A DNA stretch of 64,000 nt. It comes from Bdellovibrionales bacterium. Its GTDB lineage: Bacteria; Pseudomonadota; Alphaproteobacteria; UBA9219. Made by a program: the position numbers and the translations under genes. The notes under the pieces were generated by a model. The model did not search any database, was not told the origin of the DNA, and was given only the letters and a program-made list of their open reading frames with translations. Below, one piece after another: positions 1,873 through 64,000 of this stretch. Where the stretch lies: positions 70,694 to 134,693 of the forward strand of contig JBAZNY010000002.1 of assembly GCA_041649025.1 (NCBI GenBank), in the 5' to 3' direction. Position 1 is the first letter of the stretch. Each line of letters begins with the position of its first letter.

Positions 1873-2054
1873 CATATTTTTCTTAGTGAGCGCAGCGAGC
1901 TTAGAAAAATAGTGCCCCGGCGGAAGCCGGGGCCCAGATTGAAAACTTTAATTCTTTTCAACAATCCTTGACTCATATGCGCCGCTGACGCGGCGTTCTG
2001 GACTCCGGCTTTCGCCGGAGTGACGGGCTTATTAATGCCTCAAGAACTTCCGAA

Positions 2055-4932: not shown

Positions 4933-6252
4933 TTATTCTTTTTTTTCTTCTTCTTTTTTCAGAAGATCTTTAAGCACCTTTTTTTGTTCCGCATCAAGCT
5001 GCGTGCCGTCCAAATTGGCGCCCTTGAAATCGGTACCCGTCACGTCCGCCCCGCGCAAATCGGCATCGCACAGATCGGCGTCGCGCAGAATGACATCCCT
5101 AAGATTTGCCTTGGCCAAACTGGCGTGGCGCAGAGAAACGCCCGTCAGATTGGTTCTCATGACATGCCCTTCGGACAAAGTCAGTTTTTGCAAACGCGCG
5201 CCCTGAAGGTTGGCGTTTCTCAGTTGAGCCTTGCTGAAATTTGCGCCGCGCAAATCGGCCCCGCTAAAATTGACGCGACGTAAGTCGGCCTCGCGGAAAT
5301 CGGCCCCCTGCAACTGGGATTTGGAAAAATCGAGTTCATAGAGAACAGCCCCTTTTCCCTTCATCAAAATCAGACATTGACCGTTGAATCCGGTGCTTCC
5401 GCGCAAGTCGAAACCGCTGACATCAAATTGTTTGCCGATGCTGCCGTTGTTTTCAACCCACTGTCTGTGAGTTTGCAAAAGCTGATCAACCGGCACAGCC
5501 AAATCCTTAATCGTGCGCCCGACGGGCGCGGCCATCATCGCACCCTCCAGATTCTCTTTGGGAACCTGACTCAGATTAATCGCGGTTCCCGACAGAACGG
5601 CCCCGCGCAAAATCACATTTTCCAGATCGCATTCGCTAAAATCGGCGTTTTCCAAGTTTGTGCCGCTAAAGTCGGCATCCCTGAGGCTCGCTTTTTTGAC
5701 CTTGGCGCCCTTCATCGTCGCATCGCTGAAATTGCTCCCTACCGCGACTGCGCCTGACATTTTGGCGTTGTCGAGTTTGGCTCCGCTGAGATTAGCGCCT
5801 CCCTTATCTGAAACTGTCAGTTCGTCGTGCGCTTCCTTGAGTTCGCCTTTGCTGTCCGCGCTTGAAAGAGAGCCTTCCCGCAAATCGATCCCGACCATAT
5901 TGGCGCCGACCAAATTGGCGCCGCGTAGCGAGGCTCCGCGCAAATCGGCGCTTTTCAAGCTGGCGCCATAAAGATTGGCTTTTCGCAAATCGGCGCAATA
6001 AAAAGTTGCGCGATCTAATTTTGCTTCCGAAAAATCAGCCTCACTCAGATAGGCTCCGGTAAAATCGGCATCGGATAGATTCCGACCAGAAAAAACACGT
6101 CCTTCAAGGTTGTAATTGGCCAAGCAGGCGCGCAATCCCCCCTTACGCCCGGAGATGTAGTCTTCATGCAATTTAATAACGGCATCCAATTCCGTTTGAT
6201 TCAGGATGCGTTCTTTTTCATCGCTCTTTTCTTTATCTTCTTCAGTTTTCAT
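4933..6252 (-). CDS. pentapeptide-repeat protein
   Basis: Long runs of A(D/N)LxG-type pentapeptides (ADLRGANFSKAQLRNANLQGARL and similar). Both termini are K/E-rich. Confidence 0.85.
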   Translation of the reverse strand: MKTEEDKEKSDEKERILNQTELDAVIKLHEDYISGRKGGLRACLANYNLEGRVFSGRNLSDADFTGAYLSEADFSEAKLDRATFYCADLRKANLYGASLKSADLRGASLRGANLVGANMVGIDLREGSLSSADSKGELKEAHDELTVSDKGGANLSGAKLDNAKMSGAVAVGSNFSDATMKGAKVKKASLRDADFSGTNLENADFSECDLENVILRGAVLSGTAINLSQVPKENLEGAMMAAPVGRTIKDLAVPVDQLLQTHRQWVENNGSIGKQFDVSGFDLRGSTGFNGQCLILMKGKGAVLYELDFSKSQLQGADFREADLRRVNFSGADLRGANFSKAQLRNANLQGARLQKLTLSEGHVMRTNLTGVSLRHASLAKANLRDVILRDADLCDADLRGADVTGTDFKGANLDGTQLDAEQKKVLKDLLKKEEEKKE

Positions 6253-12005: not shown

Positions 12006-12034
12006 AGCCCTCTCCTGCCCAACAGGAGAGGGCT
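12006..12034. repeat. perfect 12-bp-stem palindrome
   Basis: agccctctcctg-cccaa-caggagagggct, read directly from the sequence in a divergent intergenic region. Confidence 0.8.
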
Positions 12035-12115
12035 TTGTTATGCGCCCGATAGGTGGTACTGAGGACTATTACAAGTCAGCGCATGAACTAGCCCGCGAAA
12101 AATGCGAGAGAGAAC

Positions 12116-12240
12116 TTCCCCTCCCCCCTGCGGGGAGGGTTAGGGAGGGGGGAGCTCAGCAGGAAAGGCGTTTCTTGATTCTGAACCGCACTGTCGGCGT
12201 CTCTCCCCCTCCCCTGACCCCTCCCGCGAGGGGAGGGGAA
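12116..12240. repeat. pair of inverted copies of a G/C-rich palindromic element (GGGGAGGGG family)
   Basis: ttcccctcccccctgcggggagggttagggaggggggag at 12116-12160 is the approximate reverse complement of ctccccctcccctgacccctcccgcgaggggaggggaa at about 12203-12240. The same element recurs at 54963-55066. Confidence 0.8.
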
Positions 12241-12315
12241 TATTTTTTCGCTTCACGAGTCGTTTCATGAGCAGATTAATATCATCGCTTCCACACCCCC
12301 TTAGAGGAGATTTCC

Positions 12316-15338: not shown

Positions 15339-15432
15339 GGAGACGTGGCCGAGTGGCTGAAGGCGGCGGTTTGCTAAACCGTTATACGTTTGAAAAGATG
15401 TATCGAGGGTTCGAATCCCTCCGTCTCCGCCA
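15339..15432 (+). tRNA. tRNA-Ser (anticodon GCU)
   Basis: Acceptor ggagacg/cgtctcc, anticodon loop ttGCTaa, a long variable arm, T-arm gaggg-ttcgaat-ccctc and an encoded CCA. Confidence 0.9.
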
Positions 15433-15478: not shown

Positions 15479-16028
15479 CTACATAGGTGACACCCGCGAG
15501 CCAAACGGGTTGTCCAGGGGTTGCAAGATCTTCTCCTCCAAGTCGATATAACCTGGATCATAATCCATAAAACTGACAAGCCAAGTGCCTTCTTCGACCT
15601 CTTTGAGGCCGACAGCTTGTCCTGCGAACACGGTCGATAAATTGATTTTTTTTGCGGTGTAAACAGATCCGACCACAATGGGTAACGTTCGCGCTCAGGT
15701 CGTGGAGAGGATACACAAGTTCTGGAAGACCAGTATACACGCGTGGGGAAGGTTTATAAATCTCGGCCGGATACTTCATGCCCAAGGCTTCATGCGGACG
15801 GTCGTTGTTGTATTCTTCGATGAAGTCATCGAACTTGGCTTGCTGTTGGAAGATATTCTCTCCGGGTGGACGCGTAGCTTCTTTCTTCAGCGTCAGATGC
15901 ATGCGTTCATGGCGACCATTCTGTTGAGGATGTGCGCAAATACTGCTCATCCCGCGCTCGTGAGCCAACACAAAGCAAATATTTTTGGGCCGATCTCGCA
16001 ATTTCAGTGTTTGCGGCAATAATCTCAT
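15479..16028 (-). pseudogene. IS481-like DDE transposase remnant (N-terminally truncated and frameshifted)
   Basis: Two overlapping frames carry HPQQNGRHERMH (P-Q-x-N-G-x-x-E-R motif), NNDRPHEALGMKYP and the C-terminal LAGQAVGLKEVEEGTWLVSF. There is no N-terminal HTH or catalytic DD region. Confidence 0.75.
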
Positions 16029-31531: not shown

Positions 31532-31743
31532 CGGATCACATATTATTTTTCAGAAGACTGAAGAAGAAATTTGTTGTAGTCTGTTCGTAACTCAGGGGGA
31601 GAGAAAAAAATCGAGACCTCAAGTTTTAGGGATTTGAATTCTCGGTTTTCAGGAAATCCCTTTTGGGGATATAAGTGGGGGCATAAGAGGAAATTATGAT
31701 CGGTGATTGTTTAGCAATATCAATCTAATACAAGCCGCGTCCT

Positions 31744-31762
31744 AATCCCTCCGTCTCCGCCA
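31744..31762 (+). repeat. direct repeat of the tRNA-Ser 3' end (att-like, exact 19/19)
   Basis: aatccctccgtctccgcca is identical to 15414-15432 inside tRNA-Ser. Confidence 0.9.
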
Positions 31763-31801: not shown

Positions 31802-31939
31802 GGAGAAAGCGGGATTCGAACCCGGCAAAAGGGTTCGATGGCAAGCCATTCAAATAGCGTTCGCGGAAGCTCCGCGAACGCACAAAAACAAAAATTTATG
31901 GCGCAGACAGGGCGAGCGGCGCGACAGCGCCGAGAAGCC

Positions 31940-31958
31940 AATCCCTCCGTCTTCGCCA
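31940..31958 (+). repeat. second direct repeat of the tRNA-Ser 3' end (18/19)
   Basis: aatccctccgtcttcgcca differs at one position from 15414-15432. Confidence 0.8.
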
Positions 31959-45109: not shown

Positions 45110-45490
45110 TCACTTCTTGGTAGCGATCTTCTTGCCGGCAATCGGCCTGGCCTTGCCCTTGCGGGTGCGCGCATTGGTATGCGTGCGTTGTCCGCGGACG
45201 GGAAGGCCCTTACGATGGCGCAGGCCGCGGTAGCAGCCCAAATCCATCAAACGCTTAATGTTCATTGAAACTTCACGGCGCAAATCGCCTTCGACTTTAT
45301 AGTTCTTGTCGATGTCTTCGCGCACTTTCAGAATTTCGCCTTCGGTCAACGTATTGACTCGCTTTGTCGGATCGATGCCGACACGGGCGCAGATTTCCAG
45401 GGCATTCGTCGGCCCAATGCCGAAGATGTAACGTAACGCAATGTGCAACGGCTTTGCCGCCGGAATATTAACGCCTGCAATACGAGCCAC
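45110..45490 (-). CDS. rpsM: 30S ribosomal protein S13
   Basis: (V)ARIAGVNIP...ALRYIFGIG...[26 protein letters not shown]. The GTG start at 45490 is preferred over the long upstream ORF extension. Confidence 0.93.
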
Positions 45491-45653
45491 TTTGTTCTCC
45501 AAAAAAACAACAAAAACACCGCATTGGCGAGAGATGCCTCGCGCGCCAAAACGGAGTTCATTTGCATAAGTTTTTAGCCCCAATCCCGAAGCTAAGGTGG
45601 CGCAGTATAGGGATTGATCGACCAGAGTCAAGCACGGAAGAAGCATTTAGGGG

Positions 45654-45771
45654 TTAGCATTTAGCATCTAGGGATTAGCATTCAGCATTTAGGGAAATAA
45701 TAACAAAGATGCTTGAATATCAATAGGTTGACAAAACGTTTCTTCCTTATCCTTAAATGCTAAATGCTAAC
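45654..45771. repeat. 21-bp repeat, two tandem direct copies plus one inverted copy, upstream of rpsM
   Basis: ttagcatttagcatctaggga (45654-45674), ttagcattcagcatttaggga (45675-45695), and tccttaaatgctaaatgctaac (about 45749-45771), which is the reverse complement. Confidence 0.8.
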
Positions 45772-45806
45772 TCGTAACTGCTACCCCTCCCCTGAATGCC
45801 CCACCC

Positions 45807-53976: not shown

Positions 53977-54460
53977 TTCTCATCCAGAATGGGACGAAGT
54001 TTATCACTCTGCCAAGTCGCGCCGCAACAGAGCCGATTAGTTCCAAAGGACGGAAACGGAAGTATATGTATCTTATTGAAAAGAATGTTCTTTTAAGTCA
54101 TTTGTCGATCCTTTAAAAAATTACTTCATAAAAAACTTCTTTAAAAATAGGTGGCGCGCGCCCCCTTCTTGCGGGTGATAATCGCAAGCCGGCAGCTGAC
54201 TACCATTCCAGTCCTTCTCCGTTTTTTTCCCACATCTGCTAGCCGAGTGGGCACGAAGTCAAACCGGATGCACCTTTCTTAAGGGTGCAAAGCCAATATA
54301 ATACAGGTCAAACGGAATGTCAAGGGATGTATCACATTAAATAAGGATATTTCTGTTAACCAACGAAGGGGTTGAAAGGATGTGATGTTTCCTTTGTATG
54401 GGAGGGGACGAAGGTGTTGAGGTGGGGAATGCAGCGTTATTGCAATGGTCGTTGTCCTTT

Positions 54461-54692
54461 TGCCGCGCGGACGCGCGGCGCTGGATTCCCGCTTTCGCGG
54501 GAACGACGAAGAAGATAAGGCGCGTTCAGGAATGACGAAAAAAAGAAAACAAATGGGGTCCCCGCCTTCCGGCTTCGCTAAGGCTACGCCGGACAAGTCG
54601 CGGGGATGACGAAGAAGAAAGAAAACAAAATCGGATTCCGCATAAATTCGCATTTTGCGATTTGCAAAAAGCGAATTTTGCGGAATGACAAA
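54461..54692. repeat. cluster of palindromic units of the ggattcc...ggaatgacgaa family
   Basis: ttgccgcgcggacgcgcggcgctggattcccgctttcgcgggaacgacga and ggattccgcataaattcgcattttgcga...gcaaaaagcgaattttgcggaatgac. Near-identical copies lie at 62639-62825. Confidence 0.85.
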
Positions 54693-54699
54693 AGTAAGA

Positions 54700-56640
54700 T
54701 TACTCTTTCAGAGAGGCTTTGAGTTCTTCGAGTTCCAGCCAACGCTCTTCGGCAGCGTGGAGCGACTCCAGCGCCTTGCCAAAGTCGCGCGTAAGCTTGT
54801 CAAACAACTCGGCGTCGCGCGTGTAAAGACCGTGGTCGGTAAGTTGGTCTTCGAGATACGCGATTTCTTTTTCGAGCGCCTTAATTTTTGCCGGTAGCTT
54901 TTCAAGCTCGTGCTGTTGGGTGAAGGACAGCTTTCCTTTATCTGAGGGCTTTCTTGCGGAACGCCCCCCTCCCTGACCCTCCCCGCGAGGGGGAGGGAAA
55001 TTGTTTATGTTTTCATCTGTTGTTCTATCATTGCCATCTGATTTTCCCCGCGAGGGGGAGGGGATTTCTTTCTTATCTTTCGCCTTCTGCTTGGTTGCAG
55101 GTTGGGGTTTTTCTTTGCCTTTGCGCTTGGCGAGATAGTCCTGATAGCCGCCGATGACGGCTTCGATTTTGCCGTCGCCTTCAAACGCCAAAACCTTCGT
55201 CACCGTCTGGTCGAGAAAGTCGCGGTCATGGCTGACGACAAGCAATGTCCCTTTGTATGCCGCCAGCATGTCTTCCAACCTGTCGAGCGTGTCCATATCG
55301 AGATCGTTCGTCGGCTCGTCGAGAATGAGGAGGCTTTGGGGATTGGCCATGATCTTGGCCAACATCAGGCGGTTTTTCTGCCCGCCCGACAGGGCGCTGA
55401 CGGGATGATGAACCATCTTCGGGTCAAACAGAAAATCTTTCAGATAGCCGCAGACGTGGCGCGTTTTACCCATCACATCGACGTAATCGCTGCCGTTCGG
55501 GCACAAGACGCGCTGCATCGTATGATGCGGGACAAGGTCTTTGCGCTTTTGGTCGAAGTACGAGAATTGCAAATCCTTCGCGACCTTCACCTTGCCCATA
55601 GAGGGCTTTAATTCGCCCACCAGCATGCGTAAAAAGCTTGTTTTGCCGCTTCCGTTCTTGCCGATGACGCCGATGCGGTCGCCGCGCAGAATGCGCAAAT
55701 TAAATTTATCGAGGATGATTTTTTCGCGCCCGCCTTCGTTAAACGATAGATGCACGTTGTGGAAATCGGCGGCGATTTTCGAGGAGGCTTCAGCCACTTC
55801 GCCCGGCGTGTACTCGATTTTCGCCAGCATGCGGGAGAGCGCGTTTTTGTCGGCGCGGAGCTTGTCGCGTTCCGCCTTCATCAGTTCGACACGGCGGACG
55901 TTGCGCTTGCGGCGCGCTTTGACTCCCCTACTCGCCCATTCGACTTCGTAATCCAAAACTTTCTGGCGGTTGTGAAGCTCGCGCTCTTCCTGCTCCAGAA
56001 TCATCGTCGCCCATTCATCGAAGAACGAGAACCCGCGCGGACAAACTCTTAACTTGCCGCGATCGAGCCAGAAAATTTCTTCCGATACATTGGCGAGAAA
56101 AGTTTTGTCGTGGCTGATGCACATGACAGCGCCGATATAGGATTTTAAATAGGTTTCAAGCCATTCGATAACGTCGAGATCAAGGTGGTTCGTCGGCTCG
56201 TCGAGCAGCAGAACGTCGGGTTCCTCCACCAGCGCCCGCGCCAACGCGGCGCGGCGCAATTGCCCGCCAGATAAATTCGTCATTTGATCTTCGAGATGGA
56301 GCTCCAGAGGTTCGACGACGCGTTCGATCTTGTAGTCGTGGCTGCCGTCCTGATTGTTAAGCGCGGCAAAGATAAACTCGTGGACCGTCTGGCCGGGTAT
56401 GGGCACGACTTCCTGTTGCAGGTAGCCGATGGTTGAGCCTTGCAGTTGCCAGCGCGTGCCTGCGTCAAGTTCTCGTTCGCCCTTGATGATGTTCATCAAG
56501 GTGGTTTTGCCCGCGCCGTTCTGACCGATGAGGCAGACTTTTTCGCCCTGTCGGATGTTGAACGTCAGGCCGTCAAACAGCGTTTTGTCGCCGAACTGAA
56601 TGACGCCGTCCTGAACGGTAAGGAGAAGGGTTGAGGCCAT
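54700..56640 (-). CDS. uup: ABC-F family ATPase (Uup-like)
   Basis: Two ABC cassettes (GQNGAGKTT...LSGGQLRRAALARAL...LLLDEPTNHLD; GKNGSGKTS...LSGGQKNRLMLAKIM...LILDEPTNDLD) and a C-terminal coiled coil. The start is taken at MASTLL (56640). Confidence 0.9.
   Translation of the reverse strand: MASTLLLTVQDGVIQFGDKTLFDGLTFNIRQGEKVCLIGQNGAGKTTLMNIIKGERELDAGTRWQLQGSTIGYLQQEVVPIPGQTVHEFIFAALNNQDGSHDYKIERVVEPLELHLEDQMTNLSGGQLRRAALARALVEEPDVLLLDEPTNHLDLDVIEWLETYLKSYIGAVMCISHDKTFLANVSEEIFWLDRGKLRVCPRGFSFFDEWATMILEQEERELHNRQKVLDYEVEWASRGVKARRKRNVRRVELMKAERDKLRADKNALSRMLAKIEYTPGEVAEASSKIAADFHNVHLSFNEGGREKIILDKFNLRILRGDRIGVIGKNGSGKTSFLRMLVGELKPSMGKVKVAKDLQFSYFDQKRKDLVPHHTMQRVLCPNGSDYVDVMGKTRHVCGYLKDFLFDPKMVHHPVSALSGGQKNRLMLAKIMANPQSLLILDEPTNDLDMDTLDRLEDMLAAYKGTLLVVSHDRDFLDQTVTKVLAFEGDGKIEAVIGGYQDYLAKRKGKEKPQPATKQKAKDKKEIPSPSRGKSDGNDRTTDENINNFPPPRGEGQGGGRSARKPSDKGKLSFTQQHELEKLPAKIKALEKEIAYLEDQLTDHGLYTRDAELFDKLTRDFGKALESLHAAEERWLELEELKASLKE
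54963..55066. repeat. GGGGAGGGG-family palindromic element copies inside the uup coding sequence
   Basis: gcccccctccctgaccctccccgcgagggggagggaaa (54963-55000) and ttccccgcgagggggaggggattt (about 55044-55066). These match the elements at 12116-12240. Confidence 0.8.
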
Positions 56641-56703: not shown

Positions 56704-57195
56704 TTATGATAGAGCCGCCTCTGCTTCTTTCATGGAAATCATAAGGAGCCACGAGTTAATCGGAGACTCGCGAAATCCGGACTGTTCATAGAAATGCTTG
56801 GCTCTGTGGGAAAGGGCGCGCACGAAGATTCCCCTTATGCCAACAATGGCTGCAGCTTCTGTCGTTCGCCAAACGGCGTCCCGAAGAAGCGCTCGTCCTA
56901 GTCCTTGGCGTTGATGCTCTTGATCGACAGCAAGGCGTCCAAACAACATCATCGGAATCGGATCAGGCATATTGCGTTTTATGTTTTTGTAAGCTTCGTT
57001 TATTTGGACGGCTCCGGCTGAAAGACAATAGTAACCTATAACTCGATCGGCCTCGCAGATCACATAAGTTTTCGAAGCTCCGCTTTTTTGATTGGCGAGC
57101 GCTCTTTGTCGCAACCACATATCAAGAACGGATTCACCGCAGCTAAACAAGGTTATATCATGATCTTCCGTCAAAAGTTTGGGGGCTAATATCAT
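56704..57195 (-). CDS. GNAT-family toxin of a TacT/AtaT-like type II toxin-antitoxin pair
   Basis: 163 aa. FSCGESVLDMWLRQRALAN..., LAVDQEHQRQGLGRALLRDAV, directly downstream of a DUF1778-type gene. Confidence 0.8.
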   Translation of the reverse strand: MILAPKLLTEDHDITLFSCGESVLDMWLRQRALANQKSGASKTYVICEADRVIGYYCLSAGAVQINEAYKNIKRNMPDPIPMMLFGRLAVDQEHQRQGLGRALLRDAVWRTTEAAAIVGIRGIFVRALSHRAKHFYEQSGFRESPINSWLLMISMKEAEAALS

Positions 57196-57208
57196 GAATT
57201 GAGTTCTT

Positions 57209-57511
57209 TTACTCCCAAGGAGCCGCTGTTTGCATCAGTTTACGCAACTCTGCATTACTCCCTGCGGGAGCATCAAGCATAGCGACAAATTTCTTGTAGA
57301 CCCCCGGATCAACCTGAAAAAGGGTTTTATTTAGAATAGTGTTTATCGCTTCGCGGCGGGCAGCTTCAAGCATGAAATCGGAACGTGTTTTACCCTCGGA
57401 TTCCGCAGCTTGATCAATAAGCGCGCGATCACAAATCTTCGCGCGGATATTGATAACTCCGGTACGCTTGAGCATAGGCTTTTGTTTCAACAAATTCGAT
57501 GATTTTGCCAT
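57209..57511 (-). CDS. DUF1778 (TacA-like) antitoxin
   Basis: INIRAKICDRALIDQAAESEGKTRSDFMLEAARREA...FVAMLDAP is the typical DUF1778 pattern. Confidence 0.8.
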   Translation of the reverse strand: MAKSSNLLKQKPMLKRTGVINIRAKICDRALIDQAAESEGKTRSDFMLEAARREAINTILNKTLFQVDPGVYKKFVAMLDAPAGSNAELRKLMQTAAPWE

Positions 57512-61486: not shown

Positions 61487-61641
61487 GTTTTTTGATCTGC
61501 TTCGCAATCAGGTGAAGGACTTCCTTGACGCGCGTATGGGCGACGGCAAAGAGGGCGTGGACGGGTTTTTTCGTCACTTTCTTGAGCGCGGCGACTTTCT
61601 TTTTAATTTCGGCGGCGTCTAAGGCACTGCATTTGTTGAAG
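61487..61641 (-). pseudogene. displaced duplicate of the obg 3' end (last roughly 50 codons)
   Basis: About 155 bp aligns by eye with 62851-63005 at roughly 85-90 percent identity (gttttttgatctgcttcgcaatcaggtgaag...ggcggcgtctaaggc). Confidence 0.8.
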
Positions 61642-62574: not shown

Positions 62575-62638
62575 GTCTTTTTGGCGCGGGTCGATGCGGA
62601 CATTATCGCGGCGGCGGAGAGAGATAAAAAAAACAAAT

Positions 62639-62825
62639 TGGATTCCGGATAAATTCGCATTTTTGCAAGAGCAAAAAAGCGAATTTTCCGGAATGACGAA
62701 GGAGGAGTGGAGGCGAATTATTTCTGTTTGCAAAAGAAACGACTCTTGCCGCGCGGACGCGCGGCGCTGGATTCCCGCTTTCGCGGGAATGACGATAGCG
62801 GGGAGCGCGAACGTCGGAATGACGA
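62639..62825. repeat. second cluster of ggattcc...ggaatgacgaa-family palindromic units
   Basis: ggattccggataaattcgcatttttgcaagagcaaaaaagcgaattttccggaatgacgaa and cttgccgcgcggacgcgcggcgctggattcccgctttcgcgggaatgacga. Confidence 0.85.
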
Positions 62826-62843: not shown

Positions 62844-63998
<1,155 letters not shown>

Positions 63999-64000
63999 CA

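What the first reader, a model, noticed from the sequence alone, without database searches (positions are those of the whole stretch)
54958..55070. Palindromic G/C-rich repeat element inserted in frame inside the ABC-F (uup-like) coding sequence
Seen: the sequence gcccccctccctgaccctccccgcgagggggagggaaa (54963-55000) and a half-copy ttccccgcgagggggaggggattt (about 55044-55066) lie within the continuous uup ORF. There they encode the odd, low-complexity stretch ...KEIPSPSRGKSDGNDRTTDENINNFPPPRGEGQGGGRSARKP..., between the second ABC cassette and the C-terminal coiled coil. The same element occurs in non-coding DNA at 12116-12240.

Established knowledge: Rickettsia palindromic elements (RPEs) are the classic case of selfish palindromic repeats inserting in frame into protein-coding genes.

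Inference: this looks like an analogous phenomenon in this organism, tolerated in a linker region.
Basis: partly seen in the sequence, partly recalled or inferred. Interest (0 to 1): 0.55.

Follow-up and report, generated by a model that had tools for sequence, protein, structure and literature searches.

The report
Triplex-motif repeat inserted inside uup gene
A short G/C-rich repeat of the known BoxC/"triplex motif" family sits in frame in a floppy linker of a ribosome-associated ATPase gene, adding 34 amino acids; the same repeat arms bracket small DUF559 nuclease genes in many bacteria, which may explain how they spread.

Summary
Window 54955-55056 is a 102-nt (34-codon) in-frame segment of an intact ABC-F/Uup gene. 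Its closest orthologues (81-86% identical) lack it, and it lies in a predicted disordered linker. It holds one complete and one decayed copy of a repeat unit that also forms an inverted pair at 12116-12240. At least four more copies, all intergenic, lie in the next 10 kb of the same genome.

The unit is not specific to this organism. It meets the sequence definition of a G/C-rich class II intrastrand triplex motif, the BoxC/PIT/TM family (PMC4666352). That paper reports the E. coli subtype (TMECO) as always intergenic and without mobility genes. A coding, in-frame copy is therefore an unusual member, comparable to Rickettsia palindromic elements but not one of them.

The Uup linker has also been hit independently, in two other lineages, by a second, unrelated palindromic repeat.

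In other genomes two inverted arms bracket small DUF559 (Vsr-like) nuclease genes. A strict triplex motif lies upstream of 23 of 71 genes and downstream of 27 of 74. The rest of the same contigs holds 0.085 per kb. E. coli ycjD lies about 170 nt from TMECO no. 9. I found no report of this link.

How the element moves is still inferred.

The parts
54700..56640 (-). ABC-F (Uup-type) gene, 646 aa, intact reading frame
   Evidence: Pfam: ABC_tran twice (E 2.4e-51) and ABC_tran_CTD (E 2.4e-16). Identical to database protein P0001. Best solved relative is Uup 9nlj, E 2e-111.
54955..55056 (-). Lineage-specific in-frame segment: 102 nt, 34 codons (P0001 residues 529-562, PSRGKSDGNDRTTDENINNFPPPRGEGQGGGRSA)
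   Evidence: A single 34-aa gap in 13 of 15 orthologues. A single 102-column gap in the DNA alignment with three orthologous loci. Coordinates computed. The edges are uncertain by a few nt because the linker is poorly conserved.
54949..55001 (-). Complete repeat unit (arm plus genome-specific tail CGTTCCGCAAGAAAG)
   Evidence: 52-nt match at 85% to 12116-12167. Arm profile E 5e-8. The same tail occurs at L207 5754-5771.
54966..54997 (-). Perfect class II intrastrand triplex motif: CCCTCCCC / CTCGC / GGGGAGGG / TCA / GGGAGGGG. It also matches a G-quadruplex pattern.
   Evidence: No mismatches in the Watson-Crick stem or in the mirror third strand. G4 pattern match.
55002..55043 (-). AT-rich (30% GC) stretch between the full unit and the half unit
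   Evidence: GC computed. It aligns weakly with the G-block and tail of a unit after many G-to-A changes (read directly).
55044..55067 (-). Decayed half unit (TCCCCTCCCCCTCGCGGGGAAAA on the sense strand), in direct orientation to the full unit and 65 nt upstream of it
   Evidence: 18 nt identical to the 5' part of the full unit. Arm profile E 0.075.
12116..12167 (+). Intergenic unit A (arm plus tail). Triplex motif at 12119-12150.
12168..12203 (.). Spacer between the two inverted intergenic units
   Evidence: The whole 12110-12246 stretch folds as single-stranded DNA at -39.1 kcal/mol, z = -3.8.
12204..12242 (-). Intergenic unit B, inverted relative to A. Triplex motif at 12207-12238.
12008..12032 (.). 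Related pyrimidine/purine hairpin of the CTCTCC type (CCCTCTCC-N9-GGAGAGGG), about 85 nt from unit A
   Evidence: No third strand was detected, so it is a hairpin only.
63934..64000 (-). Decayed or interrupted unit cut by the window end (TTCCCCTCCCCTTGAGGG ... GGTTAGGGGAGGGG)
   Evidence: Read in L207 9836-9915, which is identical to the window where they overlap. GGGGAGGG at 63939-63946.

Best explanation
Shown: the segment is a copy-and-a-half of an interspersed G/C-rich repeat unit. The unit is an 8-bp CCCTCCCC/GGGGAGGG hairpin, a 3-nt loop (TTA or TCA) and a mirror-image G block. It lies inside the uup reading frame and adds 34 residues to the linker between the second ABC domain and the C-terminal coiled coil. 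[quoted passage not shown] Close orthologues lack the segment, so it arose after this lineage split from them. Other copies in the same genome are intergenic, single or in inverted pairs. In many other genomes two inverted arms bracket a small DUF559 (Vsr-like) nuclease gene, or once a T5orf172 gene. The two arms of one such cassette resemble each other more than they resemble arms of other cassettes.

Inferred: this is selfish or neutral repeat DNA with no designed function in Uup. The copy survived because it landed in a disordered, length-variable linker, has a length that is a multiple of three, and is free of stop codons in that frame. The upstream unit has since lost most of its pairing through G-to-A (C-to-T) changes. 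Short arm-only elements like those in this window are most likely non-autonomous relatives or leftovers of arm-nuclease-arm cassettes. They would be spread or copied through DNA breakage and repair at the arms. The enzyme and the reaction are not shown.
For: Insertion and frame. An intact CTD downstream keeps the frame.

Disordered linker: residues 511-568 have pLDDT below 50 and no secondary structure, flanked by helices 499-510 and 573-600. The solved Uup chain aligns only up to residue 504.

Repeat family within this genome.

Family identity: perfect triplex motifs. The family's pattern, its E. coli copy list and its inverted pairs are given in PMC4666352. The arm profile matches TMECO no. 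9 of E. coli over its full length.

In 109 of 133 hits, bases outside the search pattern continue the G block.

The linker tolerates insertions: two other Uup lineages carry a different palindromic repeat in frame at the same place.

In-frame copies of the arms in other genes: MutS has 67 extra residues compared with E. coli MutS, and copies also occur in an EamA transporter and in GlyS.

Nuclease link:
- Two inverted arms flank a DUF559 gene in Hoeflea, Microvirga and a Candidatus Peribacteria genome.
- In 80 DUF559 loci from metagenomes, arm-profile hits number 2.28 per kb next to the gene against 0.073 per kb elsewhere.
- A perfect pyrimidine/purine hairpin lies upstream in 53 of 72 loci, against 2 of 220 control windows.
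- A strict triplex motif lies upstream in 23 of 71 and downstream in 27 of 74, against 0.085 per kb in the rest of the contigs.
- The left and right arms share the same loop in 14 of 42 cassettes, against 2.4% for arms of different cassettes.
- In L072 a truncated copy (an arm plus about 60 nt of the gene's 3' end) lies beside a full cassette.
Against: No DUF559 gene or other nuclease gene was found in the 74 kb available from this genome. The rest of the genome could not be searched.

No target-site duplication or exact junction can be read, because the linker is too diverged.

The uup copies are in direct orientation, unlike the inverted pairs seen elsewhere.

DUF559 genes between glyQ-glyS and pheS-pheT recur in several contigs. 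This looks like stable inheritance rather than recent movement.

The DUF559 sample was seeded with four proteins taken from motif-bearing loci, which may favour one sub-clade. The control windows are mostly coding; corrected per intergenic region, the enrichment is nearer 5-10 fold.

Holder et al. found no mobility genes near the 23 E. coli copies (PMC4666352). Only one of those copies lies near a DUF559 gene.

Nothing tested here excludes some effect of the 34 residues, or of the mRNA hairpin, on Uup.
Confidence: 0.8

Rival explanations
1. The segment arose locally, by replication slippage or duplication of low-complexity linker sequence, and only happens to resemble the intergenic repeat.
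For: The Uup linker varies in length and is rich in K, E and P. The segment contains an internal direct repeat with a 65-nt period, so at least one local duplication may have occurred after insertion.
Against: There is 85% identity over 52 nt with a copy 43 kb away, including a non-palindromic tail shared with a third copy. The arm profile gives E 5e-8. The three-part triplex architecture is perfect, against 0 in shuffles. The arm is 69% GC and the gene 54.5%.
Confidence: 0.04
2. The insert is kept because it does something. One possibility is an mRNA hairpin or G-quadruplex that slows or regulates translation of uup. Another is a new peptide loop that changes how the C-terminal domain behaves.
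For: The sense-strand RNA keeps the 8-bp CCCUCCCC/GGGGAGGG hairpin and contains one of only four G4-pattern matches in the window. The frame has stayed open. RPE insertions have been argued to be compatible with protein structure (PMC10969869).
Against: The segment is absent from all close orthologues. Only one sequence carries it, so no selection test is possible. The upstream unit is decaying towards less structure. The overall RNA fold is not unusual, z = -1.5. Identical units lie in intergenic DNA in both orientations. For the E. coli family members no promoter, terminator or in-vivo polymerase effect was found, and purine-motif triplexes do not form in RNA (PMC4666352, introduction).
Confidence: 0.1
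3. The units are REP/REPIN elements moved by a RAYT (IS200/IS605-like tyrosine transposase) encoded elsewhere in the genome.
For: The intergenic element at 12116-12240 is an inverted doublet of hairpin-bearing units, which is the REPIN architecture. Copy density is high, about one per 8-9 kb.
Against: In 120 motif-bearing loci of 8 kb each, no transposase-like gene family was shared by three or more loci. The shared families were housekeeping enzymes and DUF559. The genes found between inverted arms are DUF559 and T5orf172, not a Y1 transposase. REP sequences are usually specific to a species, whereas this unit is nearly the same across phyla.
Confidence: 0.05
4. The insert is an assembly artefact of a metagenome bin, with a repeat collapsed or mis-joined into uup.
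For: The source is a metagenome-assembled genome, and repeats are where assemblers fail.
Against: The reading frame is preserved exactly, with conserved sequence on both sides. The same sequence is present in a separately deposited ENA assembly contig of 123 kb, with no mismatch over the 11,005 nt compared (the obg-side overlap with L207). The uup ORF including the insert is found as an exact substring of L004 and L207. The two assemblies may, however, rest on the same reads.
Confidence: 0.02

Closest known systems
[quoted passage not shown] 2015, PMC4666352; BoxC in PMC2267715)
   Same: The three-part architecture is the same: a C-rich stem, a 3-6 nt loop, a complementary G-rich stem, a 3-nt loop that is often TTA, and a mirror G-rich stem. 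The elements are interspersed and multi-copy, occur singly or as close inverted pairs, have conserved stems with variable loops, and are widely distributed. My arm profile aligns with TMECO no. 9 over its full length.
   Different: The stems are CCCTCCCC/GGGGAGGG, not the TMECO consensus CCCTCNCCC/GGGNGAGGG. The host is an uncultured alphaproteobacterium-like MAG. One locus lies inside a coding sequence and in frame, whereas TMECO is reported as always intergenic. Units in this genome carry an extra conserved tail of about 15 nt.
Rickettsia palindromic elements (RPEs)
   Same: Both are short palindromic repeats found in intergenic DNA and in frame inside unrelated genes, adding a peptide without destroying the protein. 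No transposase is known for either (PMC10969869).
   Different: RPEs are elements of roughly 100-150 bp, in ten families confined to Rickettsia. [quoted passage not shown] Here the unit is about 40-55 nt, occurs across phyla, and only 1 of about 5 loci seen in this genome is coding. Sequence relatedness to RPE families was not tested.
REP / REPIN elements with their RAYT gene
   Same: Hairpin units occur as inverted doublets. In other genomes a small nuclease-type gene sits between two inverted units, just as a RAYT gene is flanked by REPs.
   Different: The flanked gene is a DUF559 (Vsr-like PD-(D/E)XK fold) gene, or once a T5orf172 gene, not a Y1 transposase. The unit sequence is conserved across phyla rather than specific to a species. 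No activity on the arms has been shown.
Free-standing homing endonuclease genes, in particular the Vsr-like EDxHD family (I-Bth0305I; PMC3239194, PMC3384342, PMC3424549)
   Same: DUF559 is classified in the same PD-(D/E)XK clade as Vsr and the EDxHD homing endonuclease. The arm-flanked DUF559 genes are small and lie between conserved genes (glyQ/glyS, pheS/pheT), as free-standing phage homing endonuclease genes do (the phage comparison is from my own knowledge). E, D, H and D residues are invariant in the four proteins aligned.
   Different: No cleavage site, homing event or intron/intein context is known for these DUF559 genes. Flanking triplex-type inverted repeats are not a feature of described homing endonuclease genes.
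Intragenic MITEs (ERIC, Correia and others)
   Same: They are small non-autonomous repeats with terminal inverted repeats that sometimes make in-frame fusions (PMC10969869).
   Different: No target-site duplication and no parent insertion sequence with a transposase were found here.

Membership tests
G/C-rich class II intrastrand triplex motif (BoxC / PIT / TM) | A C-rich stem of 8 nt or more, a 3-6 nt loop, and a complementary G-rich stem | tested here: met
   Three window arms have CCCTCCCC or CCCCTCCC, a 5-nt loop and a perfect complement.
G/C-rich class II intrastrand triplex motif (BoxC / PIT / TM) | A short second loop followed by a second G-rich stem that mirrors the first (G*G-C and A*A-T or T*A-T triads) | tested here: met
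   The loop is TTA or TCA. The third strand GGGAGGGG is the exact mirror of GGGGAGGG, with no mismatches in all three arms and 0 such motifs in 20 shuffled windows.
G/C-rich class II intrastrand triplex motif (BoxC / PIT / TM) | Strict TMECO consensus CCCTCNCCC-N3-6-GGGNGAGGG-N3-GGGNGAGGG | tested here: not met
   The stems are CCCTCCCC/GGGGAGGG. This is a G/C-rich TM variant, not TMECO in the strict sense.
G/C-rich class II intrastrand triplex motif (BoxC / PIT / TM) | Interspersed and multi-copy, single or in close inverted pairs | tested here: met
   About 8-9 arms in 74 kb, with an inverted pair at 12116-12240. Of 139 hits, 42 had a candidate second inverted arm within about 110 nt by a relaxed pattern; the arm profile found 27 convergent pairs with spacers of 14-106 nt.
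G/C-rich class II intrastrand triplex motif (BoxC / PIT / TM) | Intergenic location (reported as invariable for TMECO in E. coli K-12) | tested here: not met
   The uup copy is coding and in frame. All other copies seen in this genome are intergenic.
G/C-rich class II intrastrand triplex motif (BoxC / PIT / TM) | The single strand forms a stable triplex in vitro (CD, NMR) | not testable with these tools
   Shown for TMECO oligonucleotides only (PMC4666352).
Rickettsia palindromic elements | A palindromic repeat present in frame inside ORFs and absent from orthologues | tested here: met
Rickettsia palindromic elements | Sequence membership of one of the RPE families, with a Rickettsia host | not tested
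The closest Uup relatives are annotated as uncultured Alphaproteobacteria or 'Bdellovibrionales' MAGs, not Rickettsia.
REP / REPIN-RAYT | Inverted doublet of hairpin units | tested here: met
   12116-12240.
REP / REPIN-RAYT | A cognate RAYT (Y1 transposase) gene flanked by the units | tested here: inconclusive
   None was found in 74 kb of this genome, and no such gene cluster appeared in 120 motif-bearing loci. The whole genome was not available.
MITE | Terminal inverted repeats, a target-site duplication, and a parent IS with matching ends | tested here: inconclusive
   Inverted arms are present at 12116-12240. No target-site duplication can be read. No IS parent was found; the only arm-flanked genes are DUF559 and T5orf172.
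ABC-F protein, Uup type | Two ABC ATPase domains, an inter-domain linker and a C-terminal coiled-coil domain (ABC_tran_CTD), with no membrane domain | tested here: met
   Pfam, PDB Uup 9nlj at E 2e-111, and the model's secondary structure.
Arm-DUF559-arm cassette (grouping proposed here) | A DUF559 gene lying between the two inverted arms | tested here: not met
   A DUF559 profile found no such ORF in the window or in L004, which overlaps it. For the 10 kb beyond the window (L207) the precomputed Pfam list shows no DUF559. The window elements are arm-only. Cassettes were seen in other genomes.

The most novel reading that the evidence does not exclude
BoxC/PIT/triplex-motif repeats have been described for 30 years as orphan repeats with no mobility gene. 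They may be the terminal inverted arms of a cross-phylum family of small DUF559 (Vsr-like, EDxHD-type) nuclease cassettes. Arm-only singles and inverted pairs, such as those in this window, would then be non-autonomous derivatives that the nuclease, or repair of its breaks, spreads. These derivatives can land in frame in genes such as uup, mutS, glyS and an EamA transporter gene.
Probability: 0.4. Interest if true: 0.8.

Novelty: new variant of a known kind. Interest (0 to 1): 0.6.

Why it matters
The finding matters on three levels.

- It shows that triplex-motif (BoxC-like) repeats can live inside coding sequence and add peptide segments to conserved proteins, as RPEs do in Rickettsia. They were thought to be strictly intergenic. 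This cautions against reading such low-complexity loops as lineage-specific protein innovations.
- The Uup linker has been hit independently by two unrelated repeat families in three lineages. That marks it as a natural site where insertions are permitted.
- The strong co-location of the arms with DUF559 genes, including E. coli ycjD next to TMECO no. 9, gives a testable candidate partner enzyme for a repeat family whose origin and spread are unexplained. It also gives a first functional lead for a very large domain family of unknown function.

Tried and rejected
- Rfam: nothing was found at gathering threshold in the window or in 20 DUF559 loci. At permissive E-values only generic hairpin matches to miRNA precursors appeared, far below their cut-offs.
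- Literature searches for the exact DNA strings and for the encoded peptides gave no hits. The family was found only through the E. coli ycjD locus and the word 'BoxC'.
- Shared neighbour genes: all-against-all clustering of ORFs from 120 motif loci gave only housekeeping families plus DUF559. No transposase, integrase or RAYT was found.
- Long-range pairing of the G block of one arm with the C block of its partner as a conserved stem: rejected. In several pairs the two blocks are not complementary, for example T-type against A-type in L008. The arms behave as independent units.
- Target-site duplication at uup: the candidate AAGAAAG turned out to be part of the unit's tail, since it is shared with the intergenic copies.
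- 'Long ORF spans the motif' as a count of coding copies: rejected as unreliable in high-GC genomes. Only cases with recognisable proteins on both sides were kept.
- My first script for second arms had a faulty complementarity check and was replaced.
- The look-up of the left-edge window protein found nothing, so the genome could be extended on one side only.
- PADLOC gave only marginal matches for the DUF559 proteins, the best at E 5e-4.
- G-quadruplex formation is a pattern match only. I did not adopt it as the explanation, because the published in-vitro work on the family shows a triplex.
Full report
**1. The observation**

They lie in a minus-strand ORF whose product has two ABC_tran domains and the ABC_tran_CTD coiled-coil domain. 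The true start is probably the ATG at 56640, because the 646-aa product is identical to database protein P0001. The intergenic copy at 12116-12240 is also real. Positions 12116-12167 and 54949-55000 are 85% complementary over 52 nt. GGGGAGGG occurs 10 times in the window against 1.2 expected from shuffles.

**2. The insertion is lineage-specific and in frame**

- The closest relatives are 611-612 aa long, against 646 aa here.
- In a 16-sequence alignment, 13 of 15 orthologues have one clean 34-residue gap opposite PSRGKSDGNDRTTDENINNFPPPRGEGQGGGRSA. These include the two closest, at 86% and 81% identity.
- A DNA alignment with three orthologous loci shows a single 102-column gap.
- The segment is P0001 residues 529-562, window 54955-55056. 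The edges are uncertain by a few bases because the linker is poorly conserved.
- An AlphaFold model built on that alignment (mean pLDDT 76) gives pLDDT below 50 and no secondary structure for residues 511-568. That stretch lies between the last helix of ABC domain 2 (499-510) and the coiled coil (573-645).
- The solved Uup chain 9nlj aligns only up to residue 504.
- An ENA assembly contig shows no mismatch with the window over the 11,005 nt compared (the obg side). The uup ORF including the insert is present as an exact substring of the loci taken from that contig.

**3. Anatomy of the repeat**

On the uup sense strand the complete unit reads TTTCCCTCCCCC TCGC GGGGAGGG TCA GGGAGGGGGG CGTTCCGCAAGAAAG. 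It consists of an 8-bp hairpin, a 3-nt loop, a G block and a tail.

- The tail is shared with intergenic unit A (AGCTCAGCAGGAAAG) and with a further copy just outside the window (AGTGCAGCAAAAAAG).
- Sixty-five nt upstream on the sense strand is a second unit in the same orientation. Its first 18 nt are identical, but its G-rich parts have decayed to A (GGGGAAAATCAGATGG...). The stretch between the two units is only 30% GC. A profile of the family scores this second unit at E 0.075 only.
- Only two of the six frames are open across the 123-nt region. One of them is the frame in use.
- The intergenic element has two units in inverted orientation around a 36-nt spacer. As single-stranded DNA it folds at -39.1 kcal/mol, z = -3.8. 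It lies between divergently oriented genes.

**4. Copy number in this genome**

A look-up of the obg product gave 10 kb beyond the right end of the window. That stretch holds three more perfect motifs and one imperfect motif, all between called genes. A decayed copy straddles the window end. In total there are about 8-9 arms at 5 or 6 loci in 74 kb, and only the uup locus is coding.

**5. What the unit is**

These came from Hyphomicrobiales, cyanobacteria, Dehalococcoidia, Planctomycetota, Bacteroidota, delta-, beta- and gammaproteobacteria, and a Candidatus Peribacteria genome. Positions outside the pattern are also conserved: in 109 of 133 hits the G block continues as G0-2, then T or A, then GGG.

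*Route to the published family.* I looked at E. coli K-12 because its ycjD gene encodes a DUF559 protein (see section 7). There I found CCCTCGCCCCTCTGGGGAGAGGGTTAGGGTGAGGGG about 170 nt downstream of ycjD. A sensitive search finds a median of 19 such places per E. coli genome. That copy number and length recalled the BoxC repeat (56 bp, 22-32 copies; PMC2267715).

*The published description.* A search on that name led to Holder et al. 2015 (PMC4666352). [quoted passage not shown] The pattern is CCCTCNCCC-N3-6-GGGNGAGGG-N3-GGGNGAGGG. There are 23 copies in K-12, five inverted pairs and 3610 copies in 262 proteobacterial genomes, with related G/C-rich motifs in cyanobacteria. The authors report stable triplex formation by the single strand in vitro. 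They report that the copies are 'always located intergenically'. They found no promoter or terminator activity and no mobility genes nearby, and they link the motifs to local genomic instability. Their Table 1 lists the ycjD-proximal copy as TMECO no. 9 at 1,351,204-1,351,239. My arm profile aligns with it over its full length.

*Test on the window.* Applying the triplex definition directly, all three full arms are perfect. Each has an 8-nt C stem, a 5-nt loop, an 8-nt G stem, a TTA or TCA loop and an exact mirror G stem. Twenty shuffled windows gave none. The stems differ from the strict TMECO consensus. This is therefore a variant within the wider G/C-rich TM family.

**6. Comparison with RPEs, and the generality of in-frame copies**

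The behaviour matches what is described for RPEs and some intragenic MITEs (PMC10969869).

The arms also occur in frame in other proteins within the small sample of loci fetched:
- A Rhizobiaceae MutS carries 67 extra residues containing both arm translations. They replace three residues of E. coli MutS just before the Walker A motif.
- The neighbouring EamA transporter has a similar insert in its central loop.
- A GlyS has one as well.

The Uup linker itself has been hit again in two other lineages by a different repeat, GTCATTCCCGCGAAAGCGGGAATCCAGC..., which is also present three times in this window. P0081 carries it in the SFPRKRESS frame, confirmed at DNA level. P0097 carries it in the VIPAKAGIQ / WTPAFAGVT frame.

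**7. The nuclease link (beyond the original finding)**

*First sightings.* Clustering the ORFs of the 120 motif loci gave no shared transposase. It did give a small DUF559 (PF04480) cluster. In Hoeflea, Microvirga and the Peribacteria genome, the DUF559 gene of about 120 aa lies exactly between two inverted arms, with the G blocks on the gene side. In one further locus the arms bracket a T5orf172/MUG113 gene.

*Test of generality.* I used the one metagenome scan to fetch 80 DUF559 loci.
- Arm-profile hits number 2.28 per kb within 150-200 nt of the gene and 0.073 per kb in the rest of the flanks.
- 53 of 72 loci have a perfect pyrimidine-to-purine hairpin of at least 7 bp upstream on the sense strand, against 2 of 220 control windows. 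The stem sequences vary but remain complementary.
- Strict triplex motifs lie upstream in 23 of 71 loci and downstream in 27 of 74. If the second loop is allowed up to 30 nt, the figures are 43 of 71 and 48 of 74; this is needed because many loci have a small extra hairpin there. The far flanks hold 0.085-0.155 per kb.
- The two arms of a cassette share the same loop in 14 of 42 cases, against 2.4% for arms of different cassettes. They therefore behave as true terminal inverted repeats.
- In many loci the G block ends within about 10 nt of the start codon, the position of a ribosome-binding site (read directly; not tallied).
- In L072 and in E. coli a truncated gene 3' end lies next to an arm, as expected if short elements arise by internal deletion.

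*What is known about DUF559.* It is classified with Vsr and with the EDxHD homing endonuclease I-Bth0305I (PMC3424549, PMC3384342). The four proteins aligned keep invariant E, D, H and D residues. The closest solved structure is the uncharacterised 3hrl. Holder et al. mention neither DUF559 nor any endonuclease. Twenty papers containing 'intrastrand triplex' together with 'bacteria' gave no such link. This shows only that I found no report in the library searched.

*Caveats.*
- The DUF559 sample was seeded from motif-bearing loci.
- The controls are mostly coding DNA, so a per-intergenic-region correction brings the enrichment to roughly 5-10 fold.
- Several DUF559 genes sit at conserved positions between glyQ-glyS and pheS-pheT, which looks like old, stable residence.
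- This window and the 10 kb beyond it contain no DUF559 gene.

**8. Mechanism**

*Shown:* the insertion, its family, the disordered context and the co-location of the arms with nuclease genes elsewhere.

*Inferred:* the copy in uup is a passenger. It was retained because it is in frame, free of stop codons and in a floppy linker, and it is decaying. Arm-only elements are non-autonomous relatives of arm-nuclease-arm cassettes.

*Unknown:* the enzyme acting on the arms, the reaction, and whether the arms are the ends of the mobile unit or its target.

A regulatory role for the mRNA hairpin cannot be excluded. Nothing found here favours it, and purine-motif triplexes do not form in RNA (PMC4666352).

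**9. Verdict**

The element family is already known as BoxC/PIT/TM, and the phenomenon of in-frame palindromic repeats is also known. The coding location is unusual for this family. The link between the arms and DUF559 genes is a new, testable lead.

Noticed in passing
window 1974-2026, 54457-54509, 62743-62795; also L207 3420, 11060, 19346: A second repeat family with two adjacent hairpins (GTCATTCCCGCGAAAGCGGGAATCCAGCGCCGCGCGTCCGCGCGGC). It is part of a module of about 250 nt that recurs downstream of uup (54457-54692) and downstream of obg (62626-62795). The same family is inserted in frame in the Uup linker of two other lineages: P0081 in the SFPRKRESS frame and P0097 in the VIPAKAGIQ/WTPAFAGVT frame.
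   Followed up: partly
L010 3857-4320; L019 93-575; L072 265-1022; L125-L204; E. coli K-12 NC_000913.3 1351201-1351760 (L209 5202-5761): DUF559 (Vsr-like) genes are bracketed by inverted BoxC/triplex-motif arms in many bacteria. In E. coli K-12, TMECO no. 9 lies about 170 nt downstream of ycjD, with a truncated second DUF559 3' end between them.
   Followed up: yes
L062 1863-2746: A T5orf172/MUG113 (GIY-YIG-like) gene lies between two inverted arms, so the arms are not tied to one nuclease family. This is a single case.
   Followed up: partly
L027 2286-3359 and 3173-6316; L096 3-2264: In-frame arm insertions in other conserved genes. MutS has 67 extra residues just before the Walker A motif. 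Inserts also occur in the central loop of an EamA/DMT transporter and in the glycyl-tRNA synthetase beta subunit.
   Followed up: partly
L128, L135, L139, L148, L202 (before glyS); L131, L146, L150 (before pheT): DUF559 genes recur between the two subunit genes of GlyRS and of PheRS. In the pheT cases the stop codon appears to overlap the pheT start codon. This is reminiscent of free-standing homing endonuclease genes lodged between conserved genes.
   Followed up: no
window 15339-15432, 31739-31762, 31935-31958: The 3' 24 nt of tRNA-Ser(GCT) recur at 92% and 79% identity about 16.3 kb downstream. GC is 0.45-0.47 between the copies and about 0.52-0.53 in the flanking bins. A DDE transposase fragment lies at 15558-16028. 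This is probably an integrated island of about 16 kb with att-like repeats.
   Followed up: partly
window 61487-61639 and 62852-63004: A 153-nt direct repeat at 90% identity, spaced 1365 nt apart. The second copy overlaps the 3' end of obg (62844-63848, minus strand). This may be the footprint of an insertion next to obg.
   Followed up: no
window 4933-6252 (-): A 439-aa pentapeptide-repeat protein. It explains the family of direct repeats with 15-nt periodicity at 5048-6085.
   Followed up: partly
window 45642-45782 and 45783-45806: An inverted repeat made of TTAGCATTTAGGG-like units, followed by a G4-pattern match. Both lie just beside the Alpha operon ribosome-binding-site leader (Rfam hit at 45458-45562).
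   Followed up: no
window about 56704-57475 (L004 9166-9937): A TacA-like antitoxin and GNAT acetyltransferase (TacT-like) pair immediately upstream of uup. An HTH/Gp49 (HigBA-like) pair lies just beyond the window's right end (L207 7060-7691; L004 1-483).
   Followed up: no
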